Below are positions 2,644-63,193 of a stretch of DNA of 64,000 nucleotides, one piece after another (within the stretch, counting starts at the first letter, position 1; each line of letters starts with the position of its first letter). A program made the position numbers and the translations under genes. Below the pieces are notes generated by a model. That model made no database searches, was not told where the DNA came from, and was given only the letters and a program-made list of their open reading frames with translations. Source of the stretch: Nemertoderma westbladi (Eukaryota; Animalia; Xenacoelomorpha). The DNA lies in assembly GCA_032718475.1 (NCBI GenBank), contig JAUCBJ010002985.1, positions 37,533-101,532 on the forward strand, in the 5' to 3' direction.

Positions 2644-2645
2644 TA

Positions 2646-5915: not shown

Positions 5916-5916
5916 A

Positions 5917-6477: not shown

Positions 6478-6479
6478 TA

Positions 6480-7730: not shown

Positions 7731-7732
7731 GT

Positions 7733-8185: not shown

Positions 8186-8216
8186 TTAATCATTTAGCTT
8201 TTGTTTATCAGTTAAA

Positions 8217-10209: not shown

Positions 10210-10769
10210 CTAATCACCAATATATTCTACACCTAAAGTCACAACACTAAACATTAAGAAATAATTAACCAGTTTACTAAATATAGGGTAATAAATGTGA
10301 AATTTGCTAGGTGAACACATTAAAGTACATTTACCGGTATGAAAGCAGCAAATGACTACGGTATTATTTATTCTTATTTTGCAATTATTAAAAATTTCAG
10401 GTTCATATATAACTTGAAGTTATTAGCACATTATCAAAGACAACATAAAACCCGGTATTGTTTATCAATAACCTATAGACTACAGACTTAATACTAAAAA
10501 TATAAGTACATAAATTAACAGATTTTAAAATCAAATTAATACTAGTTTTATCAAATATATGCTTTTTTACTTTTTGGAAATTATACTTACTACCTAATAA
10601 TGTAATACGACCATTTTTAAATATTAATAATGTGGCACCAAATATTTTATATATAAACTGATTTGGTTTGAGTATGTGTTTACCAGATAATTGATTTTTT
10701 TAATTCTTTCAAATTAATCGCTGACACTTGCTGGCAACTTACATTCTTATTAACTATCTGATAGTTCAT
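10210..10769 (-). pseudogene. TBP-like gene of element 1 (several frameshifts)
   Basis: Manual translation gives MNYQIVNKNVSC..INLKELK, ATLLIFKNGRITLLG, YEPEIFNNCKIR and VICCFHTGKCTLMCSP, homologous to 50895-51446. Confidence 0.8.
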
Positions 10770-25311: not shown

Positions 25312-25320
25312 TAGTAGTAG

Positions 25321-25665
25321 TATAACATCACAGAACTTCACGAAGTATATACATCACAGAACTTCGCGAAGTATATATACATCACAGAACTTTACGAAGT
25401 ATAGATCACAGAACTTCACGAAGTATACATCACAGAACTTCACGAAGTATACATCACAGAACTTCACGAAGTATAACATCACAGAACTTCACGAAATAAT
25501 ATACATCACAGAACTTCACGAAGTATACATCAAAGAACTTCACGAAGTATATATACATCACAGAACTTCACGAAGTATACATCAAAGAAGTTCACGAAGT
25601 ATATATACATCACAGAACTTCACGAAGTAGGCCTATGCATCACAGAATTTCACGGAGTATACATC
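25321..25665. repeat. Minisatellite with 23-27-bp unit, right part
   Basis: The same unit resumes directly after the RTE tail. Confidence 0.97.
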
Positions 25666-44434: not shown

Positions 44435-44892
44435 AGTAGTAGGAGAAGCAGTGTCCCCCTCATAGTCCTCCCTAGCTTGGGCTATGGGCATTCCATTCGG
44501 AGGCAATTAAAAAATTCCAAATTCCGGTGCTAAATTGCGGTGCGCGCCATATGTCACCATCGGCAGTTGCCATCAACCAATCGTAGCGTAGCCTAACCTC
44601 GCGATGCCCGCCTTACTAGACTACTGACTAACTACTAACCCTAATGTTATTCACCTTTTCGCCACGTTACCACCACCACCACCACGCTACCACCACTGTA
44701 TACTGTATATAGTGACGACAACGACGACGTGGCCATCTACACGCATCATGCATATACCCTCCCTCGATATTATATATTATATTATATCGATTGCCAACTC
44801 AACGACTGCTGTCGCCAAACCAACAAACCAACCAACCAGCCAGTATGATACATGAAATTCCGCCACACGTCAACTACGAGTATACAAGCATT
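44435..44892 (+). repeat. Left terminal inverted repeat of element 2 (~450 bp)
   Basis: Reverse complement of 62751-63193 with scattered mismatches and a small indel; (AGT)n terminus. Confidence 0.95.
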
Positions 44893-45597
44893 TCCATAGT
44901 AGTTACTCATCCTAACCGATCCCTCAGCATCTGTGTCATATTGAAAGGCTACTACTAACATTATACTGTGCGTTTTTATTATAATTATTGATTATTATTA
45001 CGCACGCACAACCCAATGATTCATATTCTTTCACATATTTCCTATCCACGCAACCATTCATCCACATTGCAACCCATCTCTTTTCTTATTCGTCGATGAT
45101 TATGCCACATCCCATCTCTTCTACGTTGATTATGCCACATCCACACGTATTCAGAAATTTATATATAACTGAATGTTTTTGTTAAAATTCATCACTTGTA
45201 ATCTTCATGGTAATATATTGATACCATATCTAATTTTTTGTTCTCACTCTGAAATTGTGTTATTTCCTTAATAATTTCTACATTATCTTACTCGTTGTAT
45301 ATTCGTTGGTCGGAAACACTCGAATAAATGATACTGATTCCCACATTGGGTTTCTAAACGTAATTATGTAACTCAAAGGAAATCTCGTTTGGATGTGCGG
45401 GAGAATTTTTAGTATCGATGAATATATTAATCAAAGACGACTAGCAAAAACTTATATTGAAACTGTTTCAATATAAGTTTTTGCTAGTTGTCTTTGATTA
45501 ATACAATTTTAGAGTGAGAACTATGGTGTCAATTTATTACAGCGATACGGTTTAAAATTTATCACTTGTAATATTTTTCGTATTTATTATTATTATT

Positions 45598-46662
45598 ATG
45601 GCCTTAACGCAAAAAACCGGAGCAACAAATAGCTGGAAATTTACTTACAATAAATATACTTGTACCGCCGTTCACAGCAAGTATTTTATTGTGGAATCTC
45701 AGGAGGACAACGAATCAATTTGTTTTTCCCATCAAGATACCCGCTATTTGCTAGACATTCTAGAAACAACAACCAACAACCAACATCAATCCAGACCAGC
45801 AATTATACCAGGTAGGATATATGCCGCTCTTCGTTTTGCGCGAGGAAATTTGAATATTTCTATCAACCCCACATCGGGTGATGTTTACGTTCAGAAACAA
45901 GGCAAATGTAAAGTCCTCAACAAAGCTTTTACTGAAGTTCTAATTCAATACAGAGGGAAATTATTGCAATTTCTCTCTCCACCGCTAGAGATTATTAGCG
46001 ATCAATTCTACATTGAATTATCAAATCCAGAGTTTATTGGATTTGTAACAGCTTTTAAAGGAACCAACTATGTTGACTTATGGAAAATCAGCGTCAGATA
46101 CGCTGATAGTGTTGGTTTTAACTATTATACGGGTTTCAATTTGTCAAATCAGGAACTAACCGTTTTGTTGCGAGAGTGGGACACTCAAATTGATGAACCA
46201 GACAAGCATCTTTTTGATAAAAATATCATTCAATTATCAGACCGTCTCAAAATGATTAAAACCAATAATAAAAAAATTATTATCACCAACACCGATAATT
46301 CTACTGAAGTAGGAGCAGGTGGAAATTCTATTGAGTTGCATTACTTGAATGATAAAGCCCATATTAGTTTTCTCAAAGAGGCTATGGATGGCGTTTCTCT
46401 TATTGAAGCCAATGTAGATGGTTTTGTCCTTTTGGATAAACCTAAAGCATTCGTAGAGATCCCATCACCTAATCCGGATGTTGAAGAGAGTTGCTCTCAA
46501 CCGCAACAGGTCTTTCGTGAAATATTACCTCGGAAGCCAAGATCATCGAGTAAATTTACCAACGCATCACCTGCAAAGAAACAGAAAGTTGCTGTTAACC
46601 CAGCTCCAGTAGATCTAGTTACTAATTCTCCATGGAAACCAGATTATTATCCTAACATGTAA
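45598..46662 (+). CDS. Putative PC4-like repeat protein with NLS-like tail
   Basis: FYIELSN..FIGFVTAFKGTNYVDLWKI...GFNLSNQELTVL matches the PC4 signature. Tail PAKKQKV. Confidence 0.65.
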   Translation: MALTQKTGATNSWKFTYNKYTCTAVHSKYFIVESQEDNESICFSHQDTRYLLDILETTTNNQHQSRPAIIPGRIYAALRFARGNLNISINPTSGDVYVQKQGKCKVLNKAFTEVLIQYRGKLLQFLSPPLEIISDQFYIELSNPEFIGFVTAFKGTNYVDLWKISVRYADSVGFNYYTGFNLSNQELTVLLREWDTQIDEPDKHLFDKNIIQLSDRLKMIKTNNKKIIITNTDNSTEVGAGGNSIELHYLNDKAHISFLKEAMDGVSLIEANVDGFVLLDKPKAFVEIPSPNPDVEESCSQPQQVFREILPRKPRSSSKFTNASPAKKQKVAVNPAPVDLVTNSPWKPDYYPNM

Positions 46663-46705
46663 ACCTGATCATAAGTTAAACTCTTTGAGGTTTCCAATAC
46701 CCATA

Positions 46706-46760
46706 GGTGATTGGTGTTTGGTGATTGGTTTAAAATTATTTCACTCGCTAGCATATAAAT
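46706..46760 (+). promoter_or_regulatory. Putative polB promoter (two inverted CCAAT boxes + TATA-like box)
   Basis: gtgattggt twice, then catataaat ~100 bp before ATG 46859. Element 1 has the same arrangement at ~14775-14812 on the minus strand. Confidence 0.45.
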
Positions 46761-46858
46761 GTTTAGATATAGTCAATATCATTTCATTTCATTTTATTTT
46801 AATCTTTGGAGATATTTTATTATTATTATTATTATTATTTATCTAAACAAACTTCAGC

Positions 46859-49800
46859 ATGGATAAAATAACAATATGTTGTTCATTCTGTCATATGAAT
46901 GTAACTAGACATAATTATTTACGCCACCTACGGTCACATTTTGAAGGTTATTCTTGTTTTAAGTGTCACGTCGTGACTTCATGCAGCGAAATTTGTAAAC
47001 GACATGAATCAACTACTGGTTGTAAAGAAATGGAGTTCCGTACCTATCAATTGACTTGTTCTACCTGTAATAAAGAGTATACATATGAGAATTATTTACG
47101 ACACGATTGTCACTTGAAATGTTACTACACAAGAAAGCGTAAATTTTCGCAACATAAAAATATATTATCCAGAAAAAAATTAAGGGTGGCTCTTGGTACA
47201 TGCGCAACAATTTTTACGCGGGAACAAGAAGCTCACGATAATCGTCTTGAAATTTATGTCCACGACCTCCCAACTTCTAGAGATTATCCCGATGTAGAAA
47301 CAGCATTAACGCAAATTCGAGGTAATATTCTTCAGTTAATATTAGATAGATTGAAAGAAATGAATGTTCTTAGACTGTGGTTAGGTCTAAATGTATTAAT
47401 GTACAGATCACATTTTTCAGAAGGCGAGCAATTGGAAACTTTTTATTTTAATTCTTCCGGTGGTGCTATTAATACTGTAGATTCATCACAAAGTTTTGAC
47501 ACATGGTTTGAGTATGTGGTGGAAAATATATTACAAAAAATAGCCATCTTTAACACACGTGGTTCAGGGTGGCGTATTAAATCTTTATTAAGGGTTGAAA
47601 TTAAATTAGCTGAATCTAAGTGTAGGTCGTTACTATATAAGGGGCATGGATATATGGAATTACCTAAGGCTCTATCAGGTAAAAATTGTACAATAAATAT
47701 ACAAACGGCTGATAATGACTGTTTCAAATGGGCTATTATAACCGCAAAATTTGGTAGCAAAGTGAAAAACAACAAACAGCTTACTTCGTCGTACAAAAAT
47801 TATATGAGTCATTTCATTTTTGACAACGGGAAAAATGATTATCCAACAGAGTGGCAGTTAGCGATTAAACTTTTTGAAAAACAAAATTCAAAATATATAA
47901 TTAATTTACTATGTTGGAATAACGACAACAAACGCACCCCTGTATCTATATTAAGACAACCTCCGTTTAGTAAAATTACACCTGATAAACAGTTATTAAA
48001 TATATTACTTGTAGTAAAAAATAACAATGTACCTAAACTGAATCATTATGTTAGCATAACTAACTTGAATCGATTGCTGAATACGAGAGCTCTTCATATC
48101 GGGAATAGGAAATATTGTGAAAGGTGTTTGGCTCATTTTTTTCGAGCGGAAGTTCTTCATCGACACCGTCTCGCATGCTACCAAGGAAGAAGTCAACGAG
48201 AGAAACTACCTAATAAAAAAAGAACACACATTAGTTTTACAAATTTAGATAGAACCTTAGCCCCATTGTTTGTCACCTACTTTGATATAGAATGTATCTT
48301 ACAACCTTCAGTTAATAATCAAATTATACAGGAGCATATACCGTGTGCTGTGAGTTATTTAATTGTTCCCAATACTGAATTAATTGATGCTCCAAAATGT
48401 CATTTGAAAACATTCGTAAAGTCAAATAATAATAATTGTATTCAAGATTTCTTAGATTCATTATATACTGATTTAACTGAATTATGTTGTTGGTCAGAAA
48501 TATACACTCATAAAACTATGTCATTTACTAATATTGATTTTGTAAATTTTGAACAAGCAAAATTTTGTTTCTATTGTAATGTTACTTTAAATAATAATAT
48601 AGGGAAAAACAGACATCATTCACATATTACAGGTAAATATATTGCGGCAGCCTGTAATAGTTGTAACCGAAGTTTATCATTGAAACGATACCTGTATGTA
48701 CTTTGCGGGCATAATTCCAGTAATTATGATATACATTGTATATTACAAACCGGATTTAGAGATAAGAAATACACAGATTGGGATATAAAGGTTATACCGA
48801 GAAATACAGAACGATATATTTAACTGAGTGCATTTATCCCAATTAAAAACACTTCTAAGAAAATTGAGTTACGTTTCTTAGACACATATCAATTTTTAAG
48901 CTTTTCTTTAAGTAATTTAGTTGAGTGTTCAACAAAGGATGTGGCGAGTCATGATAAAAGCTCAATTTTACCTATTACTCTACAAGAAATGAAATATTTT
49001 TATCCAAACTTGAATAACTCAACAATTAAACGGAAAGGAGTATTTCCATACGAGTACTTGACAGATATAAATAAATTTAATGATACTGGTTTGCCGTCTA
49101 TAAATAATTTTTTTAGTAACTTGAGTCAAAAAACATGCACAATTGAAGATTATAGGTTTGCGGAATTATCATGGGTACAATTCGACTGTATGAATCTCAA
49201 AGATTATCTTTTAGCCTATTTAAAACTCGATGTTTGTTTGCTTGCTGATATATTTGAGAATTTTAGGAATGTTTGTAAACAAAATTACGATTTAGAAGCG
49301 GTTTTTTACTGTAGTATCGCGTCATTTACCTATGATTGCGCACTAAAATATAATAAATGTAAAATAGAATTAATAAAGGATTATCAGACATATAGAGATT
49401 TTGAAAAATCAATTAGGGGTGGTGTTTCATTTTGTCGAAAGCATTATATAGAATCAAATATACCAGGAACAAGTACATATGATTCTACTAAGGAAGAATG
49501 CCATATTTTTAATATTGATTTCAACTCTTTATATTCTGGGAATTTAAGTAAAAAACTACCCACCTCACAATTCAAAGAAGTAAGTATTAAACACTTAGAG
49601 AATGCAATTCCAGAAAAACTAATCGAGTACTTGGTAGATTTAGACATTGATGGATCTACTGGATATTTTTTAATATGTGATTTAAATTATCCCAAAGCTA
49701 TTCACGATCAAACATTACAATTACCGTTAGCTCCAGAGCATTTAAGTATAAATGAATCAATGCTTTCGCCTTATATGAGGGAACAATTTAATAACTTATC

Positions 49801-50917
49801 GATACAAAGAGGTACCTCCTGTAAATATAGGATGCCTATACCAAAACTCTTGCTGACGCAATTTGATAAAGAATTTTATCATTTACATTTGAAACTGTTA
49901 AAATTTTATATAAAACATGGATTAATTGTTACTAAACTACATAAATTATATTCTTTTCAACAAGAATTTGTATTTAAAAATTACATCGATTTTAATATTA
50001 ATCAAAGGCGATTAGCAAAAAGTTACATTGAAACAGCTGTTGCGAAATTGCTTAATAATTCGTTATTTGGTAAATCAATAGAAAAGATAAGAGATCGATG
50101 TAACTTTCGTATCGCAAATAGCAATGATAAATGCGACCAATTGGTGAATCGTATTAATCATGAACAATTTATAATATACAATAATACATTATCGGGACAT
50201 TTATTAGTGAAAGACTCTGTAACTCTCGATAAGCCTATATTTATTGGTAGCACTATGTTGGACTTGGCTAAATTGGATATGTATGAGCTGTTTTACAATA
50301 AACTGCTACCTATTGAGAAAGAATTAAACTGCCGTATTGAAATTGCTGCATCAGATACGGACTCTTTAATAGGATGTTACTATAATACATCGCAGAATAA
50401 TTTTTTAAAAGCATTAATTAAAAATAATATTTTAGATACATCCAATTACCCTAAGGATCACCCTCTCTACAGCGATAAAAATAAATCGAGACTTTATTAC
50501 TGTAAAGATGAACTAGCTTCATGTGAAATTAAACAAGCAGTATTTTTAAGACCAAAATTATATTCAATTTTGGAATGGAATAACAAAAATATTTGTAGAG
50601 CAAAAGGTATTACAAGAGCTGTTGTGGAAACGAATATTACACATGAAGAATATTTAAAAGCATATAACTCAAATGAAGAAATAAAAAAAAACATATACAG
50701 ATTTCAATCTAAATTACATCGTATTTATACCTTAAAGCAAAATAAATTTGCACTCAGTAGCTTTGATGATAAACTTTATTGGGTTAATAAAAATCAATCA
50801 CTTCCTTGGGGGCACTATAAAACAAACCTCAAAAAACCTATAAAAATATCAAATATACCAATTTATGAAGAACCAAAAGACGATGGTGTTGATGATGAAT
50901 TATCAAATAGTAAATAA
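46859..50917 (+). pseudogene. polB: Protein-primed DNA polymerase B of element 2 (1352 codons, single nonsense TAA at 48821)
   Basis: The two track ORFs are in the same frame: RYI*LSAFIP versus RYISLSMHIP in element 1. All pPolB motifs are present. Confidence 0.95.
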
Positions 50918-51446
50918 AAATATAAGTTGTAAGCAGATCATTTATGGACTTAATTTAAAAGAATTAAAAAATCAATTGAATGGTAAAATTGTACTCAAAC
51001 CTAATCAGTTTATATATAAGGTATTTGGTGCAACCATATTAATGTTTACAAATGGACGAATAACAATTCTCGGTAGAAAATATAATTTTAATAAAGTGAA
51101 AAAGCATATATTCGAAAAAACAAACATTAATTTGATTTTTAAATCAATCAATTTGTGTACTTATATTTTTAGTATCGATACCGTAATTTATAGGTTACTT
51201 ATAAACAATATCGGGTTTTATGTTATATTTGATAATGTTAAACTAGAAATTTCAAACGAGCCCGAAATATTCAATAACTGTAAAGTCAGAATAAATAATA
51301 TTGTTGTTGTTTGCTGCTTCTACACTGGTAAATGTACATTAATGTGTTCCCCGTTTAAATTTCATATATATTATCCTATATTCAACAAACTGGTTAATAA
51401 TTTATTATTGTTTGGTGCGAGGGTTTTTGATGTAAAATATAATTAG
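50895..51446 (+). CDS. TATA-box-binding protein (TBP)-like protein overlapping the polB stop
   Basis: Two TBP-type repeats: YQIVNKNISC..LNLKEL...ATILMFTNGRITILG and NEPEIFN...VVCCFYTGKCTL (TBP has LDLK.IA, TALIFSSGKMVCTG, YEPELFPGL, LLIFVSGKVVLTG). About 183 aa. Confidence 0.75.
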   Translation: MNYQIVNKNISCKQIIYGLNLKELKNQLNGKIVLKPNQFIYKVFGATILMFTNGRITILGRKYNFNKVKKHIFEKTNINLIFKSINLCTYIFSIDTVIYRLLINNIGFYVIFDNVKLEISNEPEIFNNCKVRINNIVVVCCFYTGKCTLMCSPFKFHIYYPIFNKLVNNLLLFGARVFDVKYN

Positions 51447-52207
51447 TGCGAGTGAAATTTATTGTTGTTGTTGTTGCTGTTTGGTGGTGGAGATTTTTAC
51501 TGTAAAATATATATTAAATTTGGCTGGAAAAAATTTATGAATATTTTTTTTTTTAAATCAACAACTAGTTGGGGGAAATTAACTAACTAACTAACTTCAG
51601 TAGAGCGATTGCTTGTAACACTCGAGTAGGCATAGTTTACTCAGCGGCCGTAGCTAGCTAGCTAGCTAACTAAGCATCGCAGCTCACGAGTGAGCTACAA
51701 TAGCGCATCTGTTACTTATGAGTGTGCGTGTGTGCGGCAGGCAACGCTAAGCTCGGTGAGAAAAGATTAGGGCTATGTGCTGGTATTCATAGTCAAAGAC
51801 GATGCCCTCCTATCTGTTACTAGTCTGTATACCGGTACATATTATTAAAACATCAGCTATGCATCTCCCTACATTCAGAATAGAACAACGAACAGAGCAT
51901 ATATCGCTAACTAATCTGCATGGGAAAGGTTTATGTTGTGCATTTTGTTAACTATGAGAATTTTGTAATCTAAACATCTGCGACCCTCTACAAAAATATA
52001 TATAAACTCAATTTTTCTAACAGTGAACTATAATTTTGTTTCCCTACCGTAAAATAAAAAAATAAATACCGGTATAGACTAGGCCTAACTTATCTTCATA
52101 TTTGAAAAAAAAAAAACTAACCTCAACAAACTTCAGTTCCAACAATCCTTCTCTATCAATCAACCAACATCCGTTCCGACATCCAACATCCAACACCAAC
52201 AATCAAG

Positions 52208-52561
52208 ATGGCATTTTCTTTCATTGAAAATAGCGGCGACTGTTTATTAAAATTTGATGTTGATGGAGACGACCTTTATTTCACATCATTAAATGTAACT
52301 GAATTACATTTAAAAAATAACAACGGTGAAATAACAATAATGATTAAAAATAAAACCAGCGGCAGCCAAGGTCACCAAACCATATTGACGACCAATAAAA
52401 ACTTCAATTTAAACGTTAGAGTTCAACCTGGAGAAGCGCATCAGATAAGTTTGGACAATTATAGTAGGGGAGAGAACTGGGATGAACATGAAGATATAGC
52501 AGCAGCTCCAGTTCCAACACCAACTCTACTACTTCCATCTGATCCGAGAATACGTCAGTAG
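52208..52561 (+). CDS. Hypothetical 117-aa protein unique to element 2
   Basis: ATG in good context (aagATGG) after CAA-rich leader and upstream TATA-like sequence at ~51997; beta-strand-like pattern; no counterpart seen in element 1. Confidence 0.5.
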   Translation: MAFSFIENSGDCLLKFDVDGDDLYFTSLNVTELHLKNNNGEITIMIKNKTSGSQGHQTILTTNKNFNLNVRVQPGEAHQISLDNYSRGENWDEHEDIAAAPVPTPTLLLPSDPRIRQ

Positions 52562-52886
52562 ACTCGTACAGCAAGTAGACTCATAGGCCTATATAATTAG
52601 TCATGTGTGTTACCGGTATCAGTAGGTTTTTGTATTGTATTGTATATTTTATATTTTATATCTAATTAAAAAAAAGCGAATACATAAATAAACTAACTAT
52701 GTTTTATAGGCCTATAGGCCTATAACATGAAGTGAATGAATGAACTTGGGCGCGGTGAATTTTATATATTGCTAGCCACACCTTGTATCAATGTGCTAGG
52801 CGGCTTTCAGTTGAGGAGTAGTGATTAGGCCTATATGCCTAACCGAATGAAGGTGCGCCTAGTGTGAGTTCTAAAGGTTAACCGTA

Positions 52887-53100
52887 AACCATATTGGGTC
52901 AACATTCGAAAAAGGGGGCCGCATAAAGTTAACTATAGCTGTATAGGCTTGCCTATGCAACAGTAGTAGCCCACAGTAATGTAGATTAGACCAACCATAT
53001 TGGGTCAACATTCGAAAAAGGGGGCCGCATAAAGTTAACTATAGCTGTATAGGCTTGCCTATGCAACAGTAGTAGCCCACAGTAATGTAGATTAGACCAA
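52887..53100. repeat. Perfect tandem duplication of 106 bp
   Basis: aaccatattgggtcaacattcg...gtagattagacc starts at 52887 and again at 52993. Confidence 0.95.
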
Positions 53101-53604
53101 TTAAAGTTGTAAACAGAAAATTGGAAGCATTCAAGTGTAATAGCCTAATCCTTAAATCGAAGAAACCTGCATGCCCTTGCTCTATCCAAGTATACAGTTA
53201 CAAGAGTGCTACAGTGCCGGTACCAGTAGGCCTATTGTTTGGTGGGCCCCTCTAATGCTGCATTCACGAACCCCCCATGTCGAGTTAATTTAATTTTATT
53301 ATTAGTAAGTAACGCTAAAGCGCTGTGGCTGCTGTCGGTGCACTCTAGAAGGGGGTGCCATTCTGCCGTTCTACAGTTTAGCGTTGTTGCTATATGTCTG
53401 TATGTGTGTAAAGTCAGCTACTGGTAGTTAAACTCTGATACAACAGCCGGCTACCGGTAGGTACGGTGTGTTTGTGAGTGTAAACTTAAGCCCTACACCT
53501 TCAGTCAAACTGAGATATAAAAAAATAGATTTTAATGTTTTTATTATTTTTATTGACATTAAAACAATTATATTATCCCATCACATTACATACTTAGAGT
53601 AAAC

Positions 53605-54210
53605 CTACTGTACGAGTACATCTTCCACCGCAGTTATTTCTTTCTGTTTATCATCAGTGTCAGTTAAACGCTTTCTCACGAAAAATCGTTTCAATTCAAA
53701 CCCACCGACACGTTTTGCAGAGCAGTACCGCAGACAGTTATCCCTTGTGTTTAAGTGGAAAGCACATTTATTTTCTAGTGTAATAAATTGATCGTGGAAG
53801 CGACAGGGGGTTAAATAATTGTAATATCGCTGATATTGATATATCCACAATTTCTCCATCGAATTTGGTGCGAGAACATCAAGTTGGGAAACTAATATTG
53901 CCCGCTTCATCAACCCAAATACATGTATATTTTTTTTATATTTTAAATGTCTCTTCATGTACTTTTTAAAGTCATCTTGCGAAATGTCACCGTAATCCCA
54001 AGGTAAATGCGAAGTCATGTCCCGTAAATTGTTTATATGAGCTTTATCTAATGCTGATAACTTAATATTAGGTGGACCTTTAATTAAAAACGTCTTTACA
54101 TTAGTTTTGGTGTAATTAGAATCGAATATAGCAAATTCTTTAAATACTACCGGATATTCCTTATTGTCTATCGTATAATATTGAAAATCAACAAAAATAA
54201 TATTATCCAT
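53605..54210 (-). CDS. DEDD/DnaQ-like protein (element 2 copy)
   Basis: Close homologue of 8217-8819. Confidence 0.6.
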   Translation of the reverse strand: MDNIIFVDFQYYTIDNKEYPVVFKEFAIFDSNYTKTNVKTFLIKGPPNIKLSALDKAHINNLRDMTSHLPWDYGDISQDDFKKYMKRHLKYKKNIHVFGLMKRAILVSQLDVLAPNSMEKLWIYQYQRYYNYLTPCRFHDQFITLENKCAFHLNTRDNCLRYCSAKRVGGFELKRFFVRKRLTDTDDKQKEITAVEDVLVQ

Positions 54211-54241
54211 TTTATCTGATAAACAAAAGTTAAATGATTAA

Positions 54242-54694
54242 TTACAACGCTTGTTGGTTTATTTTATAATAATTAACAAGCCATTTATATAATATTATTT
54301 CATTTATTTCCACATTATTTGTAAACGCTCTCATTGGATAGTTTATATGAATTCGATTTACCAAGTAATAAAGACAGTATAATCCACATGTGGTCCTCCT
54401 GGGGTCTTGAAATTGTTTCCGGGTAGTACGCCATCTTGCTGAATTTTTCTCAAGCCATTCTTCGATACATCTGTTTGGATATTTTGGTCCGAATGAATTA
54501 AATAATTCAGCCTCATTATCTCGTATATATATAGCAATCCAATGAACCCCGGGTAGATGCTGTTTATCGGTGTTTACCATTAACCCATAATCTCTCCGTT
54601 TATTATTATCTAATTTAGGTAATTTGTTAGATGGAAACGCTCCCAAATAGTGACCACCCACTGGAAACATATCAAGGTCCTCTGTAGATAACAT
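54242..54694 (-). CDS. Adenain-like protease (element 2; catalytic Asp changed to Asn)
   Basis: PGVHW, FNSFG (FDSFG in element 1), CGLYC. Confidence 0.9.
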   Translation of the reverse strand: MLSTEDLDMFPVGGHYLGAFPSNKLPKLDNNKRRDYGLMVNTDKQHLPGVHWIAIYIRDNEAELFNSFGPKYPNRCIEEWLEKNSARWRTTRKQFQDPRRTTCGLYCLYYLVNRIHINYPMRAFTNNVEINEIILYKWLVNYYKINQQAL

Positions 54695-54696
54695 AC

Positions 54697-55949
54697 TTAA
54701 TCGATATGTATTTCTTTCCTGCTATTTAAACTTAATGATTGATCATAAATATTAAAAACAATTACATTTATGGTCTCAACCAACGGTTCGGCAAATCTTA
54801 ATTTTAATTGGCCGTTAGTATATATCGATGGTTGCGGATCTCTAACATAGCCGTCGGCGGTTAGGTCCCAGGATATGAGTGGGCAATTACCTAAGTAGGT
54901 TTCATGGTGTATTTTATTACCTCCATAACCGTTAATATATGTATTAATGTTTTTCATTAATTGAGTATACTCAAAAATGTATGTTCCATCTGTAAAATTA
55001 GGCTCGTATATTACACCACCTACTGGAAGACCGTCTACAATCAGTTCCGCGCGTCTAAGGTTAAAATGTTCAAATTTCAAGGGGTTACTAATTCATTCTC
55101 CCGAATATTATGCATTATTTGTTATAAAACCGATAATAACTAATTTGGGTTTTTTACCATCAAATATGTTTGTTTGGATGTAATTTGTGGTTTGTGCGGG
55201 AATAGTAAATATTGTAACCTCCTTTTTTTGGAATTGATATTCAATATCGTAACTCTCTAAACCTTTTAGGTGACTGCTTTCTATTACGGGATTAACCTCC
55301 ATTCTAGGGATTAGGATCTTTACTTCATCTAATTCTAACCGAAGATTTGTCACAGCGTTTGTGTTTGGAGTGATTTTAAAAATAAACGAATTTGATACTT
55401 TTCTAAAATGCATTCTTAAATCATACCCGGGTTGTATTATTTTAGTTTCAGTATCAAAATCAATTGTCAATCCACTTACAAATTGCATTTGTTTACTAAA
55501 GGCATCGCCAATAGGATGCGCACCAGGATCAATTTCATTTCCGTGTTCGGATAAAGGCTGATGAAAGCCACCCGCCCCCAGTAGCCCATTTTTAGATTCG
55601 TATGTTGTAAATAGTAAATTGGATTGTAGAAATAATGGTTATTGCTATTTTCAACCTGCTTCTCATTAAGGTCTATTTTAATATCACTCCACATAGTTCC
55701 AGCGGGGTAATTCAACATATAAATATGGGAGTTTTCAAGTCGTCTATCCCACCGTACAGTACATTTTGTAATTAATAACGCATCTTGCAGTTTCGTATAG
55801 AATTCATTGGATCTTGGTACAAGGAACGTGACTTCCCTAGACTCACTTCTGAGATTGGATACCGGGTAAATTGTTTCATAATGCTTTGCTTTAAATTCAG
55901 TCTGTATTGGCTGTGTAGAAAATAAATCTAATTCCTTAATAATTGACAT
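54697..55949 (-). pseudogene. Major capsid protein (element 2), broken into three ORFs
   Basis: Fragments 55476-55949, 55108-55488 and 54697-55080 align with 6480-7730. Confidence 0.9.
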
Positions 55950-55951
55950 TA

Positions 55952-56804
55952 TTAAAAAATACTTTTTTCGCAGTGTTTCAGTTTGCCTTTTATTTTTCTC
56001 TTTTTACTACGTCGATGATGTATGTTCATAGACATTGGTCTAGTAGGTCGCTTTAAGTCTTTTTCTACAACCGATCTTGTGGATGGTTTCATTTTATTTA
56101 ATGCTTTATTAATAACCGTATTAGCCTGCTGATGTAAGACCCGCTTACCTTTTGGTATTACGTGTTGTCTCATAAATTTTGTGGTAAAAGGTAAAGGTTA
56201 GGTTCCACCTTGGTGTAGTGGTTGCATTGAATTCACATCTCCTGAAGGTCGTGGGTTCGATCCTCACATGGGCCAGGGCAGTTTTCGTTTCGGCACGAAT
56301 GCTTTAAAGGGACCAGCCAGGGCGCATCTCTGCCTTGCATCCTTAAGTGGTAGCTAAATGAGTACTGGAGTTTCCTCTGGGGAGTAAAGTTCTGGGGGGA
56401 CCGCACTGGAAATAAGTCGTCAGACTTTGTGCGTAATCCCTGGCCTAGTGGCCGAAGAAAATTTACTTTTTTACTTTTTTACTTTTTTAAAGCTTTTTGT
56501 AACACTTTTTTTTTGCTAATGGCTTACCAAATTTTTTCAATGTAGATAAAGCGTCTGTAAATATACCTTCCCCGTGTTGATTTGTTCGCAACATACCTCT
56601 ACGATAACGTTGAAAACGATGTTGTTTTAAGTTTGGACCAAATGCACCAATTTGTTGTCCGTAAGGGTCAATATATGAACCACCTCGAAAAACAGGAACT
56701 TGCGTCGAGCCTCTCATACTTCTACCACCTTTAAAAACAGCAAGATTAGAGTCTGCACCACCATATTGAGGTTCACTGTATCTTTGAAATAAATCGGAAT
56801 CCAT
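55952..56804 (-). pseudogene. Cupiennin-like core protein (element 2), disrupted by a SINE and an A-run frameshift
   Basis: The two halves match 5917-6477 on either side of the insertion. Confidence 0.88.
56197..56487 (+). mobile_element. tRNA-derived SINE with Nin/Deu-like central domain
   Basis: A box tggtgtagtgg, B box ggttcgatcc, core ctctgccttgcatcctt..gtggtagctaaatgagtac, (ttactttt)n tail, TSD taaag (56192-56196 and 56488-56492). The site is empty in element 1. Confidence 0.88.
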
Positions 56805-56805
56805 T

Positions 56806-57652
56806 TTAATTTATTTTTTTAAAGTTTAAGGTAATTGAAGTTGTGCCGTATTCAAAATTCAAATCTTTTCCTTCTTTGTCTGTTATTTCAATATGAATGT
56901 ATGTTATCTTATATGATTTTTTCACAGGGATATAATGAATTGTATCCTTGACAAATTCTTTATTTATTACACTACCATATTTCACGTCATCAGGTATTGC
57001 GACACGACGAAGTAAGGCTAAACCAAAGTCATTAATATATTCATTTTCAATTATATTAGTAGTCACGTACATGTTCGATTTAGGTTCTGGAATAGAATTG
57101 GGTGGTTGAGGGCATAAAAATACCATCTGGTAAGCTTTTTCTTCATTTCCGATAACCTTTATTAAATAACCCTTTATATTATTTTTTGTCTTCAAAATAA
57201 TTTTAAAATTTGGATTTAAATTCGCGCCGAGATTATTTTCAGTAATTCCAAAATAATAGGCTAATTGTTGACCTATAAATAACTCTCGTACAGTTTTCCC
57301 TAAAATAAATTGCAACCTATTTTGCTGAGTATTTTCAACTATTTGTAATTTATCTTTCAACGCCCCAGTGTTAAAATAATCTATAATGTCATTGATACTG
57401 TAGAACAAACCGGATGGAAGTGTATCCTCAAAATTTTTTTTCCCTTTTTTTTAATAAAATAACATTCTCTACATTGTTATACATGGACGGTAATGTGGCT
57501 AAGTAAAATATACTTTTTATACCTACCACCCAGTTTTCGTTTGGATTTATAGGTAAGGCGCCGTGGAAATTGATCTGATAATTACTACCAGTATTACGAG
57601 GAAAATCAATTGGACAGGAGTTACTTGGTAGTCTAACGTAGAACTCATCCAT
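56806..57652 (-). pseudogene. Minor capsid protein (penton) 2 of element 2, frameshifted in an A-run
   Basis: MDEFYVRLPSNS... (57428-57652) plus the 200-aa ORF 56806-57408. Confidence 0.82.
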
Positions 57653-58520
57653 CACCACCACCACTGCGTATTAACTTAAGTGTTATAACAGTGCGACCAC
57701 CGTTGAAATTAATTAATTCACCTTGGCCGTCACATAAAGTAATTAAGATTGTTTTTAGTTTTTTATTCAACAACGGGTAATAGCAAATGCTCTCATATTC
57801 GTGATTAATATATTTTCGATTTAATTGTGTTAAAGGACAGGTTCTTAAGAGCGGAGCTAAAGCGTCACCAACAAATGAGCTCTTAATAATATCTGTATAT
57901 ATGAAGATAGTATCTTTATTACGAGTAATATTTGTGGGAGCCGGAAAATCTAAAATCCCAATTTCCGAAATTTTTGGTCCACTATAATTTAAAATTAATA
58001 TCGGCTGTTCTATATTGCTTAATTCATCCACTGTAGTGGTACTGTATATATCCCAATTCGGAATACTCAGATGATTCTGATCCAATAACGGTTTTAAGCC
58101 TAGAATTTGAATTAAATCACCGCGTAGACTTAATTGTATTTTTTTCAACTTTTTAGGAAATTTAAATTTAATTCTAGAATTATTTGTATTAAAAATGAAT
58201 TCGAAATCTCTATATTTCGCTTCAGAATTAAACAGTTTATTTATATCATCAATAATGACTTGAATAGAGCTATGCATACCAGGAAATAAATTGTATAATT
58301 TGGCATCTTTTGCATCTACCCCGATTGACAGCGAGATTTGAGTTTGCAGAGTAATATTACTGTATGTTGCTTGATATTGTATCTCTGCGAGTCCAATTTT
58401 AGAGTTTGGACCAATATATAATTCTTCGGCTAAATCAACAGTAAACTCGCTAGGGTTATTATTGGGGTAAGTGTTTAATGAGCTATCTGAAAGTAGAGTG
58501 ATATATGTATCTACAGCCAT
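57645..58520 (-). CDS. Minor capsid protein (penton) 1 of element 2
   Basis: Near-identical to 4203-5075. Confidence 0.88.
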   Translation of the reverse strand: MAVDTYITLLSDSSLNTYPNNNPSEFTVDLAEELYIGPNSKIGLAEIQYQATYSNITLQTQISLSIGVDAKDAKLYNLFPGMHSSIQVIIDDINKLFNSEAKYRDFEFIFNTNNSRIKFKFPKKLKKIQLSLRGDLIQILGLKPLLDQNHLSIPNWDIYSTTTVDELSNIEQPILILNYSGPKISEIGILDFPAPTNITRNKDTIFIYTDIIKSSFVGDALAPLLRTCPLTQLNRKYINHEYESICYYPLLNKKLKTILITLCDGQGELINFNGGRTVITLKLIRSGGGDG

Positions 58521-58785
58521 TATTATTATTATTTAAGCTCTCTCTACTTGACTCCTTTGTACATACAGTACAGTACAGTACGGTATAATGTTAAATAATA
58601 GACATCTGTGACCACGTTCATTCCCGCTTCGCTTCTACAGTATATGTGAGGGATCAATATTTTACTGGCTTTATTTAAAGCGAATGAACTATAGTATAGT
58701 AATATCATTTGAGTTAATATTGATTGATTAATTAATTACGGACATATGTGACCAAAATGAATTAATATACAGTATAAACCTAAAC

Positions 58786-59875
58786 TTATTGAATATGCTG
58801 TACCCACGACTGTTTCTTGGATCCGATGAATCGGACTAAATATTCTTTTTTCCCATTGCGTACACGTTCTTTAAGTTTGCCAATATTTTTGTCAATCGGA
58901 AGATAAATATTACTATTCGGGTAGACCTTTTGGAGTTCATATGAATAAAATGAGCCGTTTATTATAGCTCCAGTGCTGTCCTTAATATCGAACATTACCG
59001 CTGGTACTCTATCCAATCTGACCCGATGAATAATAAATAATTCACGTGTCCATTGTTCTCGATAGCCTTTAGCAAAAGCAGTACGAGCGATAGATAATCG
59101 TACTGTATCTCCAACTTTAAATTTTATTTTCTTGTGATTAATCTGTCTATATTTCCCATATAATCTATTCATTAATTCAGTTTCATTAAATTTATTAACT
59201 TCAATGGGTGTCATTTGTATTGTCCTATGATATGACCTATTATAAGCATAAATGAGCTTCGGTAAAATTTTTATCCAAACATTATTTCCCCTTTGCGTGA
59301 AAATTTTGAACATCTTTGTTTTTAATGTTCTATTGAATCTCTCGACAATAGCCGCCTTATTCACAGAATACATTACATAATACTGTATACCAATAGTATC
59401 TAAATATTTCCTTACAGATTTATTTAGAAACTCAGACCCTTGATCAGTTGCGATTCTGTTTGGTTTTCCTTTCTGGAATATTTTTTGCAATATACTAATA
59501 ATTTCAATACCCTTTTTTGTTTTCATACCATAGGCAAAAGCAAGCCGGCTAAAGGCATCAATACATGTTAATATATAGTTATAATTATTATTTTGCGATT
59601 TATATTGCTGCATATCCACCAGATCTATCATATATATATCTTTTAAGCCTCCCGTAAATATTTTAGATGTTGGATAATGATGTCTACGTGGTGCGTGAAG
59701 GGAGTATGTCTTTTGCCCGCTCAACCATTTCTGGGCTTGAGCTGGTTTGATGTTTGCAGCTTTTGCTAATTTTGCGATACTTGCAAAACCCGCAGGGGAT
59801 GAAGGATCTAAATAAATTCTTAACAGTTTTTTTGTCTAAGGTTCGGCTTAAAATCGGTTTCATCTTGCGTGGCAT
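58786..59875 (-). pseudogene. rve integrase of element 2, frameshifted near the N-terminus (A-run at ~59830)
   Basis: MPRKMKPILSRTLDKK then shifts frame; the remainder is near-identical to 2868-3956. Confidence 0.92.
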
Positions 59876-59926
59876 CTTTTCGACAACCGCAAGTAATATG
59901 TATATTCAAATCTCTTATAAAGGGCA

Positions 59927-60097
59927 TCACCGTAAAAACAACTGAAATTTTTTTATTATTTTTTTTGAAGTTGATGTTTTAAAGGGTTTTCTTTTTGTAG
60001 TATTTACTCTAGGTATATCTTGAGGTTTTAAATCAGTAGCTAACGGTTTACTCGATACTAAATATAATTTTCTAAATGTTACTCCTGTTTTAACCAT
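59927..60097 (-). CDS. Small basic 56-aa ORF (element 2 copy)
   Basis: Same length and 3' translation as 2646-2816. Confidence 0.6.
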   Translation of the reverse strand: MVKTGVTFRKLYLVSSKPLATDLKPQDIPRVNTTKRKPFKTSTSKKIIKKFQLFLR

Positions 60098-60099
60098 TA

Positions 60100-60482
60100 T
60101 TACCGTCCACGGTTAATTTTTTTCGCAATAGCCGCTCCAGCGGTGGCGGCACCGGCACTCGCGGCGAGTTTCGCACCAATGCCGAGTAAGGGTATTAGAA
60201 ACGGTAGTATGCCTCCAGATTGATTGCTTAACTTTTTTCTATAACTTGATATATTTTTTGTTTTACGGTTGAGTGATTTCAATACCTTTTTATATCGGCG
60301 AATATTTCTAAATGAATGAGGTTCAATTGTACGTTACCTTTTAGAACATTTAATGCAGTATTTACAATGAGCCGTATTAATTCATTACTCGCGGTATGGT
60401 TAATAAAATAAGTTTTTTGTTGAGGGGTAGCGCTGCGTAGAAATTCCAGTTCGTTACGATATTTCTGCACAAGTCTATTCAT
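60100..60482 (-). pseudogene. pX/gasderminX-like protein (element 2), 1-nt deletion
   Basis: Split into 60279-60482 and 60100-60282. Confidence 0.82.
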
Positions 60483-60519
60483 TGTTGCAACATTATTGAA
60501 AATTGTTACAAAATATTAA

Positions 60520-61201
60520 TTATTTATTATTATTATTATTATTATTTTCGCTACGTTTATAGTCAATGTAATTTTTAATGTAACAATTATGATTACGAAA
60601 TATATCCGATCTAAATCTTAAATGTTCGGGTGTTTCCTGTCGTAAATCAATTAAGAAATGCGAAAATGGTTCAATAGTCGCATCTTGATAGGAATCTACT
60701 AAAAATTTGGTCTGCCCTGGTAACATCTGCTTCGCGAAATTTAAAACCGATAAACTGTCTTCGTGGATTTTTCATTAATACTAAAGTATGGCTATTAATT
60801 GATCTTGTGCGGTTATGCTGCCCACCGTAAAACATGTTTTGCGTTATAAAACAAATAAATATATTGGAATGATGAGCTACCTTAGTAAACAATACAGTTA
60901 AAGCTGTACTGGACTCAGTTTCTTTTAAAAAATCATCTATAATTAATAAATCTCGACTATTCACTAAACTATCTATATTTTCTGGCAAACCTTTGTAAAG
61001 GTGAGTAATACCAGGAATAGTTGGGGGATTGCTCCCGTAACAATACAATACTCGCAAGGGGGCTTCGTTGAAACAACCATTCTTGTGTTTAATTAAATTG
61101 CACACAAATGTTGACTTTCCAGAACCAGATGGGCCAGAAATTATCATACTCGTTCCCATTTGAAAGTTTAAATTATATGGACCTGAATTAAAGTCAGCCA
61201 T
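60520..61201 (-). pseudogene. Packaging ATPase (element 2), 1-nt insertion at ~60760
   Basis: Split into 60671-61201 and 60520-60726; Walker A/B retained. Confidence 0.9.
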
Positions 61202-61427
61202 TTATTATTATTATTAAGATATATCAACAATACAATATAATATAATATAAATATCAATATCAATAAACCATCACCATTACTATATTGTATATAACAATAA
61301 TTGAGGCAACTACAATATTAGAGTACTGTATATTTAATTAACATATGACACAACTACAGTATGTGACGCTCGCTGCAACAAAAGGTGCTATTTCCAATTA
61401 TAGTATAGACTCATTTTCAATGTAATT

Positions 61428-61877
61428 TCAAGCATGGTGAGCATCTTTATACGCGAAATAATGATAGGTAACATCGGCGGTTTGGAAATCACTTCCTGAG
61501 AATTTCGCGCTAATGATTTTTTTATGTTCGCTGCTAAAAAAATAAGGAATATAGTAGCAACACCGTCGTACTACATTTCTATAAAAAATATTCTCCAATA
61601 TTGTAAATAAATCTCCTGGATCATTACTTTCCGCAGAAATATAAGTTATATTGCGAAGCTCTTTCCAATAATAGGGTTGGTATCTTGCCAACTTTATATT
61701 AAACTTAGATATGGGTGCGCGACAAATAGGACAAATTTTAGAACAATAATTATTCATTTCGGAATATTGTACAATACATTGTACGCAAGTTGCATGTTTA
61801 TTTTCACATTTATAATAATCTCGATGTTGCAATAACTTAGAATAGCAAACTGGACATTTTTCATTTAAAATATCCAT
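61428..61877 (-). CDS. C3HC4 RING-finger protein (putative E3 ligase), intact
   Basis: CPVC-x11-CENKHATCVQC-x13-CPICR. Confidence 0.85.
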   Translation of the reverse strand: MDILNEKCPVCYSKLLQHRDYYKCENKHATCVQCIVQYSEMNNYCSKICPICRAPISKFNIKLARYQPYYWKELRNITYISAESNDPGDLFTILENIFYRNVVRRCCYYIPYFFSSEHKKIISAKFSGSDFQTADVTYHYFAYKDAHHA

Positions 61878-62064
61878 TTTCCAAATTTTAAAGTAAATTG
61901 AAAATAATTACCTCAATACACAACAACAAACAAATCTGTTATACTGTATATGCAATTACTACTACAATTTTCGATTATTTAAAATTTGATGTTTTTTTTT
62001 TCATAATTAAAAACATCAAAATTTTATAAATAATCATAAAATATTTGTAATATAGTGGGAAAAG

Positions 62065-62508
62065 TCAAGAATCAATGATATTATCAACATATTCAACATT
62101 ATCTGTTGATTCTTCAGTTTCGACAAAGGATTCTTTTGAAATCATTACAATAAAGAAAGACATAATTTCGTAGGGGCTATGCCGATTTAGCCGTATTTCA
62201 AACTTTTCACCAGCTTCGTTGTATTGTGTAATAACAATTAACCCCTCTATCATGGATAATAGTAAGATATTGATTAATTTTCCCTCATGCTCAACTTTCA
62301 GGTTGTAATCTAAGAGATGAATACTATTATCAGAAGCATCAATATCAATTGAGCTTAAAACTTTCCTGGCTTTTTCAGAAAACTCAATTTTATATTTATC
62401 ATCTCCCCGACGGTAAATTGTATAATCAATAACAATATAGGCTTCACCATCTTCTGCAAAAAATGAATGCCTTACTATTGGCATAACCATATCGGAATCA
62501 GAAGACAT
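62065..62508 (-). CDS. Hypothetical 147-aa protein (element 2 copy)
   Basis: 4 aa differences from 266-709. Confidence 0.75.
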   Translation of the reverse strand: MSSDSDMVMPIVRHSFFAEDGEAYIVIDYTIYRRGDDKYKIEFSEKARKVLSSIDIDASDNSIHLLDYNLKVEHEGKLINILLLSMIEGLIVITQYNEAGEKFEIRLNRHSPYEIMSFFIVMISKESFVETEESTDNVEYVDNIIDS

Positions 62509-62750
62509 TATTTAATTTATTTTATTGTAAATCAAACAAACAAAGTAAAAACTTTTAAACTAAAACCATTACAAATGATTAATTGTGATTAAAGCAAGAG
62601 ATTATATATAAGATATTTTCAAAAATAATACAGGTCTTAAACTGAGAAATAGCCTAAATTCGGTTTATTGATTGGTTGATTAGCCGGTAGGGAACTACTG
62701 TATAATCAAAAATTATTTGGTTCTGCGTAATAATAATAATAATAATCACT

Positions 62751-63193
62751 AATGCTCGTATACGCGTAGCTGGAACGTGGCGGAATTTCATGTATCATAC
62801 TGGCTGGTTGGTTGGTTTGTTGGTTTGGCGACAGCAGTCGAGGAGTTGGCAATCGATATAATATAATATATAATATGCGTGATGCGTGTAGATGGCCACG
62901 TCGTTGTTGTCGTCACCATATACAGTATACAGTGGTGGTAGCATGGTGGTGGTGGTGGTAACGTGGCGAAAAGGTGAATAACATTAGGGTTAGTAGTTAG
63001 TCAGTAGTCGAGTAAGCCGGGCATCGCGAGGTTAGGCTACGCTATGATTGGTTGATGGCAACTGCCAATGGTGACATATGGCGCGCACCGCAATTTAGCA
63101 CCGGAATTTGGCATTTTTTAATTGCCTCCGAATGGAATGCCCATAGCCCAAGCTAGGGAGGACTATGAGGGGGACACTGCTTCTCCTACTACT
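62751..63193 (-). repeat. Right terminal inverted repeat of element 2
   Basis: Reverse complement of 44435-44892; ends ...CCTACTACT followed by TSD AACGGT. Confidence 0.95.

What the first reader, a model, noticed from the sequence alone, without database searches (positions are those of the whole stretch)
50895..51446. Divergent TATA-binding-protein homologue overlapping the end of polB
Seen: a ~183-aa ORF (the size of the TBP core) with two repeats, LNLKEL..ATILMFTNGRITILG and EPEIF..VVCCFYTGKCTL. The element 1 copy (10210-10769, missed by the ORF track because of frameshifts) reads YEPEIF, closer still to TBP's YEPELF. The IFxxGK-type Phe is kept in both repeats, but other DNA-face residues differ and there is no N-terminal tail. 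The start codon lies inside the last polB codons in both elements. Inference: an altered-specificity viral TBP or a dominant-negative mimic of host TBP.
Basis: partly seen in the sequence, partly recalled or inferred. Interest (0 to 1): 0.82.

Follow-up and report, generated by a model that had tools for sequence, protein, structure and literature searches.

The report
Maverick element's rewired TATA-binding protein
A virus-like Maverick transposon carries a conserved, heavily altered relative of the cell's TATA-binding protein, which likely reads a non-standard promoter box and likely steers the host's transcription machinery to the element's own genes.

Summary
ORF 50895-51446 (183 aa) lies in an 18.8-kb Maverick/Polinton (inverted termini, 6-bp target duplication) and overlaps the pPolB stop by 23 nt. 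A frameshifted copy sits in a second element; dN/dS between them is 0.16, like pPolB (0.15). Alone it scores just under Pfam's TBP cut-off. A profile of clear TBP-fold relatives, seeded from another Polinton, matches both lobes (33 bits; best shuffle 6.4), and the predicted fold's best matches are all TBPs. It keeps three of four DNA-kinking phenylalanines and both TFIIB-binding glutamates. It has lost the fourth phenylalanine and has other residues on the base-reading face. No TFIIB or RNA polymerase gene was detected in the element. Best reading (0.55, inferred): an altered-specificity TBP that brings host TFIIB and Pol II to element promoters. Two relatives show an ATAAAC box before genes; here only a post-hoc lead, TATAA[CG]A, before 4 genes. 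A decoy role is not excluded. In print I found only a 'TBP' label in figure legends. This scan has reported Polinton TBPs before, on other DNA.

The parts
50895..51446 (+). TBP-like gene, open frame, 183 aa, two lobes
10210..10769 (-). Copy of the TBP-like gene in element 1, broken by two frame changes
44435..44892 (+). Left terminal inverted repeat of element 2, begins AGTAGTAG, preceded by target duplication AACGGT
   Evidence: 458 nt aligned, 92.8% to the right repeat
62751..63193 (-). Right terminal inverted repeat of element 2, followed by AACGGT
45598..46662 (+). 354-aa gene of unknown family, first gene of the polymerase arm; 41% identical to its element-1 counterpart
   Evidence: no family found
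46859..50917 (+). [quoted passage not shown]
   Evidence: (element-1 copy: 186 relatives, many with PF03175 or PF02945)
52208..52561 (+). 117-aa ORF of unknown family
53605..54210 (-). 201-aa ORF of unknown family, with a counterpart in L004
   Evidence: (likeness by eye)
54242..54694 (-). Adenain-type maturation protease
   Evidence: Pfam Peptidase_C5 above cut-off
54697..55949 (-). Putative major capsid gene, broken into three ORFs (capsid role inferred from size and position)
   Evidence: element-1 ORF against the L007 428-aa protein, E=2e-37
56487..58520 (-). Putative core protein gene and two putative minor capsid genes (labels inferred, not tested; core and second minor capsid broken)
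58786..59875 (-). Retroviral-type integrase
   Evidence: Pfam rve E=1.6e-10; start
60671..61201 (-). A32-like packaging ATPase (shorter than the element-1 copy)
61428..61877 (-). RING-finger gene
   Evidence: below cut-off
61937..61943 (-). Candidate box TATAACA, 66 nt before the RING start (lead only)
59913..59919 (-). Candidate box TATAAGA, 44 nt before the integrase start (lead only)
57681..57687 (-). Candidate box TATAACA, 38 nt before the second putative minor capsid start (lead only)
56907..56913 (-). Candidate box TATAAGA, 109 nt before the putative core gene start (lead only)

Best explanation
The gene is a conserved, tail-less TBP-fold gene of a Maverick/Polinton, and its product likely works as an altered-specificity promoter factor: it would bind a non-standard TATA-like box in the element and would recruit host TFIIB and RNA polymerase II through its intact acidic stirrup. 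Shown: the gene, its selection, its homology to TBP, the residue pattern, and related genes in three other Polintons. Inferred: DNA binding, the identity of the box, TFIIB contact, and any early-to-late timing (made with the polymerase, then switching on integrase, packaging and capsid genes).
For: Selection: dN/dS 0.16, equal to pPolB 0.15. Homology: Pfam TBP is the only family hit; 29 of 30 Atlas hits are TBP clusters, best 0.95; a profile of the window's own copies returns one PDB sequence of 177,635, a TBP (E=0.064); hhalign to the family 95.9%, E=5e-9. Fold: TBP chains fill the top Foldseek rows (E from 3e-5) and the top five VIA rows (Z 9.6, rmsd 5.9, 158 aligned; best unrelated 5.9). 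TFIIB contact: E122 and E124 match the two glutamates that bind TFIIB (PMC7221094 section 11) and are kept in 61 of 62 family rows each; most viral TBPs lose them and carry their own TFIIB, and KSHV ORF24 lacks them. No TFIIB or RNA polymerase family hit among the element's ORFs. Altered face: in the family the positions of yeast V71, V122, T124, N159, L205 and I194 are fixed as N (60/62), R (62/62), M (62/62), S (60/62), N (58/62), R (59/62); here N9, T57, L59, T89, C140, K130. Box in relatives: CATAAAC before 7 of 13 L004 starts (empirical p about 0.04), 11 copies on the coding strand and 0 on the other in the late arm, none in pPolB; L091, not used to find the word, ranks second of 40 loci, with 8 against 0 by strand and three sites 35-37 nt before a start.
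Against: Nothing here shows DNA or TFIIB binding. Unbiased word scans of this element found no significant shared box (empirical p 0.34 and 0.14; 0.39 and 0.66). TATAA[CG]A was picked by eye, lies before only 4 of 15 starts, and is missing before the ATPase, major capsid and protease genes. L007 has a TBP-like gene and no enriched word. In L004 and L091 the word often overlaps a TAA stop (7 of 18 stops have it nearby), so a polyadenylation role is possible, and the two elements are related. The C-lobe here is more degenerate than in the family: P191 and G216 equivalents lost, an insertion of about 10 aa, pLDDT under 50 at 92-124. The model was built on the family alignment and so leans to TBP; rmsd above 5 A means that the two-lobe saddle is not resolved. 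Only 2 of 89 pPolB loci held such a gene (24 of them 12 kb or longer), so it seems dispensable for many Polintons.
Confidence: 0.55

Rival explanations
1. Decoy or dominant-negative mimic: the protein would soak up host TBP partners (TFIIB, TFIIA, TAF1, BTAF1/Mot1, Brf1) or sit on host TATA boxes, damping host transcription or anti-element responses.
For: Helix H2 here stays basic (6 K/R, 1 D/E, like the eukaryotic TBP in L092 and unlike the acidic helix of the L004 family); that basic patch is where the host regulators dock (PMC7221094 section 12). Net charge +16. Partner-facing acids kept while the DNA face is altered.
Against: In the family the DNA-face positions are fixed on new residues rather than drifting, and three phenylalanines are kept, which fits selection for DNA reading. 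Relatives carry a strand-biased upstream box. A germline-resident, many-copy element would pay for poisoning host transcription (inference).
Confidence: 0.15
2. Repurposed DNA-binding or DNA-bending protein of replication or packaging: it would bind the A/T-rich terminal repeats or single-stranded DNA and help protein-primed replication, with no role in transcription.
For: It overlaps pPolB and shares the polymerase arm's history: elements 1 and 2 are 93-95% alike in the capsid arm but 72-78% in the pPolB-TBP arm. A phenylalanine-poor TBP can prefer ssDNA (Giardia, PMC12209930 passages).
Against: In L004 and L091 the gene precedes the packaging ATPase, and in L007 it lies between minor capsid-like genes and the protease, so the link to pPolB is not conserved. 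The TFIIB glutamates would have no reason to stay.
Confidence: 0.13
3. Private viral pair: it would work with an unrecognised element-encoded adaptor (a remote TFIIB-like or other protein), as in poxvirus VITF-3 or herpesvirus ORF24 complexes, not with host TFIIB directly.
For: Most viruses with a TBP have their own TFIIB; poxvirus VITF-3 is an atypical TBP/TFIIB pair (abstract). Several element ORFs have no known family.
Against: No TFIIB hit in the ORFs scanned. The acids are conserved across a family spanning 31-85% identity, which suggests a slowly changing partner such as host TFIIB (inference).
Confidence: 0.12
4. A decaying captured host gene with no present function.
For: End branch 4.49 changes per column; the second copy is frameshifted; other genes of both elements are broken too.
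Against: dN/dS 0.16 at dS 0.86. Among 40 listed differences in public runs, 27 are at third codon positions and none makes a stop; the only indel listed is in frame and upstream of the start.
Confidence: 0.05

Closest known systems
Cellular TBP (Pfam PF00352; yeast 1ytb/7o4i, human 1cdw, archaeal 1mp9)
   Same: Two-lobe core of about 180 aa; equivalents of F116, F190, F207, N69, T112, L114, K120, R196, K211, E186 and E188 kept; basic helix H2; predicted fold matches.
   Different: About 17-20% identity; under the Pfam cut-off; N-lobe stirrup shortened with F99 lost; V71, V122, T124, N159, L205, I194, P191, T215 and G216 replaced; insertion in the C-lobe; no N-terminal tail; on a mobile element.
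[quoted passage not shown]
   Same: A TBP-like gene in a midsize Polinton-related element.
   Different: Only a legend abbreviation in the section on non-animal datasets; no residue analysis, promoter or mechanism in the passages read. The figures are not held, so I could not see which genomes carry it; the one supplement held as text had no hit.
Beta/gamma-herpesvirus late TBP mimics (KSHV ORF24, EBV BcRF1, HCMV UL87)
   Same: A viral TBP fold with an altered, more polar face, used with host Pol II on a non-standard box (the working analogy).
   Different: ORF24 is a large multidomain protein in a six-protein complex, keeps all four phenylalanines, lacks the TFIIB acids and binds Pol II directly (PMC12529657). 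This protein is the bare core and keeps the acids.
Nucleocytovirus TBP-like proteins (ASFV B263R, phycodna- and mimivirus TBPs, poxvirus VITF-3)
   Same: Virus-encoded two-lobe TBP; best matches in the viral structure library.
   Different: Those viruses encode their own RNA polymerase and mostly their own TFIIB, and the acids are about 40% conserved (PMC7221094). Neither gene was detected in this 18.8-kb element.
Unnamed Polinton TBP-like family (L004, L091, L007; P0123-P0203)
   Same: Short N-stirrup of K-P-x-Q type, N-x-N in the first strand, no tail, EPE-x-F stirrup; Polinton context where context is known (3 loci).
   Different: Only 17-28% identical; other residues at the base-reading positions; basic instead of acidic helix H2; gene placed after pPolB; no ATAAAC enrichment.

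Membership tests
TBP family (PF00352) | Score above Pfam's gathering cut-off | tested here: not met
   21.3 bits against 22.9; relatives L004, L007 and L091 pass at 51-59 bits
TBP family (PF00352) | Two TBP lobes in one chain | tested here: met
   The family profile covers both lobes, and the two element-1 pieces score on their own (E 2e-5, 1e-4); hhalign 17-148
TBP family (PF00352) | Saddle-shaped fold | tested here: inconclusive
   Best matches all TBP; N-lobe pLDDT 82-94, C-lobe about 50-60, residues 92-124 under 50; rmsd 5-9 A; the model leans on the family alignment
Canonical TATA-binding TBP | Four intercalating phenylalanines | tested here: not met
   F51, F126 and F142 kept; the F99 position is lost with the short stirrup (yeast numbering read)
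Canonical TATA-binding TBP | Base-reading Asn, Thr and Val pairs on the concave face | tested here: not met
   N7 kept; N9, T57, L59, T89, C140, T148 and M150 differ; the roles of these positions are partly recalled
Canonical TATA-binding TBP | Two C-lobe glutamates that bind TFIIB | tested here: met
   E122 and E124; residues only, binding untested
Canonical TATA-binding TBP | Binds and bends a TATA box | not testable with these tools
   Needs EMSA, SELEX or a structure with DNA
Host TBP/TRF paralogue recently captured | Groups with eukaryotic TBP in a tree | tested here: inconclusive
   Sister position to the one eukaryotic TBP sampled is rejected (p-AU 0.0007); joining the cellular plus NCLDV group as a whole is not (p-AU 0.34). 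Long branch; no animal TBP or TRF2 in the tree
Herpesvirus late TBP mimic | Large multidomain protein with a Pol II-binding N-terminal domain, within a six-gene viral complex | tested here: not met
   183-aa bare core; no such genes detected
Nucleocytovirus TBP/TFIIB system | Own TFIIB and own RNA polymerase in the genome | tested here: inconclusive
   No Pfam hit among the ORFs scanned; a very remote TFIIB-like protein cannot be excluded by sequence; there is no room for a multisubunit polymerase
Maverick/Polinton | Terminal inverted repeats starting AG, 6-bp target duplication, 15-20 kb | tested here: met
   44435-63193, AGTAGTAG termini, AACGGT on both sides
Maverick/Polinton | pPolB, integrase, packaging ATPase, protease | tested here: met
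Maverick/Polinton | Double jelly-roll major capsid protein | tested here: inconclusive
   No Pfam hit; homologous to the same-position gene of L007; fold not predicted

The most novel reading that the evidence does not exclude
A lineage of Mavericks carries the smallest viral transcription switch known to me: one bare TBP core that plugs into host TFIIB and co-evolves with its own box. The L004/L091 type (Arg and Met on the N-lobe face) would read ATAAAC, and this far-diverged type (Thr, Leu, Cys) would read TATAA[CG]A, giving natural orthogonal TBP-promoter pairs that turn on integrase, packaging and capsid genes after the polymerase arm.
Probability: 0.3. Interest if true: 0.85.

Novelty: new variant of a known kind. 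Interest (0 to 1): 0.62.

Why it matters
How Mavericks time their capsid and integrase genes is open; they are generally taken to rely wholly on host transcription (my own knowledge). A self-encoded TBP that keeps the host TFIIB contact but changes the DNA-reading face would give a one-protein route to selective transcription, unlike both the six-protein herpesvirus complex and the own-polymerase system of giant viruses. It can be tested with one small protein and short promoter fragments. Families with different fixed faces would be a natural experiment on how TBP reads DNA, and possibly a source of orthogonal promoter-factor pairs.

Tried and rejected
Direct homologue searches with the protein found nothing: 0 of 103 candidates, 0 among 1.84 billion representatives, 0 in viral contigs; single-sequence phmmer on the PDB gave only chance myosin rows. 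Relatives came only by way of pPolB loci. No whole genome is held, so copies could not be counted and the host's own TBP could not be compared. The single-sequence model had pLDDT 34 and its fold search (best Z 4.7) is not used. No RNA holder was listed; run X5 is only guessed to be RNA, so nothing is said on expression. Summed contig depths are no copy number. ATAAAC is not enriched before this element's genes (2 of 16). AGATTTG and gapped words failed the empirical null; TATAASAGA was not above shuffles (19 of 100 reach 4). An intron as the cause of the C-lobe insertion was considered by eye and set aside: the stretch is conserved as protein between the copies. A PC4-like reading of the 354-aa gene (by eye, motif recalled) got no support. 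A Pfam TBP search by handles reached only 1 of 5 records and found nothing. No complex prediction was run: only an archaeal stand-in for TFIIB was on offer and the contact depends on DNA. Literature: searches found no paper on a Polinton TBP beyond the legend label; term searches in PMC10748475, PMC11161782, PMC12220804 and bioRxiv 10.64898/2026.10.13.758929 were blank or irrelevant. Subscription papers, Repbase records and bioRxiv supplements were not searched.

Full report
Setting. The window holds two Maverick/Polinton elements in opposite orientation, separated by satellites and a LINE fragment. Element 2 spans 44435-63193 (18,759 bp), with AGTAGTAG termini, inverted repeats of about 450 nt and the 6-bp duplication AACGGT. 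It encodes pPolB, an rve integrase, an A32-like ATPase and an adenain protease; the capsid labels are inferred. An animal host is inferred from the element type and from insect records among the named pPolB relatives at about 30% identity. No genome is held.

Observation. The 183-aa frame, its motifs, the 23-nt overlap with the pPolB stop and the twice-frameshifted copy at 10210-10769 are as described. Over 153 gap-free codons the two copies differ at 25, 12 and 58 first, second and third positions. dN/dS is 0.16 (pPolB 0.15; shifted frames 1.1 and 1.9). Contigs of four public runs, two organism labels, lie on the gene. Of the 40 differences listed (17 more not shown), 22 are silent and none makes a stop, and no frameshift is listed. 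The gene is real and was under purifying selection.

Homology. Alone, the protein hits only Pfam TBP (E=2.4e-4, 21.3 bits, under the cut-off). 29 of 30 Atlas hits are TBP clusters (the tool warns that recognition is low). A profile of the window's own copies returns one PDB sequence, archaeal TBP 1mp9 (E=0.064). Direct searches found no relative. I therefore fetched 89 loci by pPolB and searched their 2,748 frames. One stood out, L004:14633-15142 (E=5e-6), a clear two-lobe TBP (Pfam E=2e-15; 35 TBP sequences in the PDB) in a Polinton with PLA2-like, ATPase and integrase genes. It led to 81 database proteins; I aligned 61 and dropped 20 short or partial ones. Their profile scores the window protein 33-34 bits over both lobes (best of 1000 shuffles 6.4) and finds a second Polinton gene, in L007. 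L091 is a third, on a 3.8-kb contig with L004's gene order, filed in a bacterial bin. Genomic context is known only for these three; the 61 database proteins have none. 2 of 89 pPolB loci held such a gene, and most loci are short (24 reach 12 kb).

Fold. With the 63-row alignment AlphaFold2 gives mean pLDDT 63: residues 21-80 at 82-94, the second lobe about 50-60, residues 92-124 under 50. TBP chains fill the top Foldseek rows and the top five VIA rows (Z 9.6 to 7.2; best unrelated 5.9); nucleocytovirus proteins, some annotated as TBP, lead the viral library. The model leans on the family alignment and rmsd is 5-9 A, so the first lobe is solid and the full saddle is likely but not resolved.

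Residues. Yeast numbering is read from the alignments; the roles come from PMC7221094 (passages and sections 11 and 12), PMC12529657 (abstract and passages) and recall. Kept: F51, F126 and F142 (F116, F190, F207), N7 (N69), several phosphate contacts, and E122 and E124 (E186, E188), the acids that bind TFIIB. Lost: F99, through a shortened N-lobe stirrup (KPNQF), shared with the family (P in 62 of 62 rows). The family fixes new residues on the base-reading face (N, R, M, S, N, R at V71, V122, T124, N159, L205, I194; 58-62 of 62 rows) and keeps each acid in 61 of 62. The window protein shares N9 but has T57, L59, T89, C140 and K130, has lost the P191 and G216 equivalents, and has an insertion of about 10 aa. 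Its helix H2 is basic, unlike the family's.

Origin. In a 31-row tree the five cellular TBPs and one nucleocytovirus TBP are split from all the others (100/100), and the window protein falls on the Polinton side on a very long branch. A sister position to the single eukaryotic TBP is rejected (p-AU 0.0007); joining the cellular group as a whole is not (0.34). The short stirrup and the N-x-N strand favour common descent with the Polinton family, but the donor is not determined.

Promoters. In L004, CATAAAC precedes 7 of 13 starts (empirical p 0.04 with 12 starts and a narrower window), with 11 against 0 copies by strand in the late arm and none in pPolB. Among 40 loci tested for ATAAAC, L004 and L091 rank first and second. 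I found this before reading the scan's notes, one of which reports a TATAAAC box on other DNA. Against it: the word often overlaps a stop codon, the two elements are kin, and L007 shows nothing. In the window, unbiased scans found no significant word. By eye, TATAA[CG]A lies 38-109 nt before the RING, integrase, second minor capsid and core genes: 4 of 11 sites, 0.44 expected, first among 32 matched words. It was chosen after looking, element 1 is not independent, and ATPase, major capsid and protease lack it. It is a lead.

Mechanism. Most likely (0.55) the protein is made with the polymerase arm, binds a non-standard box in the minor groove, presents the acidic stirrup to host TFIIB, and so brings Pol II to the element's genes. 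Every step after the residue pattern is inferred. Rivals: decoy of host TBP partners (0.15), replication or packaging DNA-binder (0.13), private viral partner (0.12), decay (0.05).

Known and new. It is a remote TBP-fold member, not a canonical TATA-binding TBP (two defining features not met). It would work like a herpesvirus late TBP mimic but is not one. Starrett et al. label a TBP-like gene in MELD virus figures (legend passages and section 8 of the preprint; passages of the paper; its one supplement held as text had no hit); I could not see the figures. Nine searches found no analysis of a Polinton TBP. PMC12917281 was seen as abstract only, PMC12209930 and PMC10748475 as passages. This scan has at least eight unchecked notes on Polinton TBPs in other genomes and none matching this sequence or genome. 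Verdict: new variant of a known kind, interest 0.62.

Noticed in passing
window 1-8824 against 53600-62784; 10221-14573 against 46905-51441: The two elements are 93-95% alike in the integrase and capsid arm but 72-78% in the pPolB-TBP arm, and the 354-aa genes only 41% as protein: a swap of the whole polymerase arm between Maverick subfamilies, like the pPolB exchange reported for nematodes (PMC10748475).
   Followed up: partly
window 45598-46662 and 15161-16201: Conserved gene of unknown family before pPolB; one segment looks PC4-like by eye (recalled motif), with no support from Pfam, PDB or the Atlas.
   Followed up: partly
L007:8810-9568: A 252-aa frame overlaps the TBP-like gene of L007 in another frame for about 440 nt; no family found.
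   Followed up: partly
L091:1-3823: A Polinton fragment (PLA2-like, TBP-like, ATPase, zinc finger) filed in a Bacteroidota bin, probably mis-binned; L092 is likewise a eukaryote-type TBP in a Gammaproteobacteria bin.
   Followed up: no
L004:11783-13489: The KilA-N gene and the next gene share a longer upstream motif with canonical TATAAATAGG, unlike the CATAAAC genes: possibly two promoter classes.
   Followed up: no
L090:9956-12028: A near-canonical TBP directly before the major capsid gene in a nucleocytovirus contig.
   Followed up: no
window 26468-40877: 14.4-kb satellite of a 45-bp unit, 318 copies, with 135-bp higher order.
   Followed up: no
window 20571-25665: A 24-28-bp satellite interrupted by a non-LTR retrotransposon fragment with reverse transcriptase at 23957-25311.
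   Followed up: no
window 52887-53100 and 8900-10150: The gap between the two converging arms differs completely between the elements; element 2 has an exact 106-bp tandem duplication and a 117-aa ORF there.
   Followed up: no
window 45170-45575 and 46725-46750: A word like GTTTAAAATT..TCACT recurs before the 354-aa gene and before pPolB, possibly an early-gene signal.
   Followed up: no
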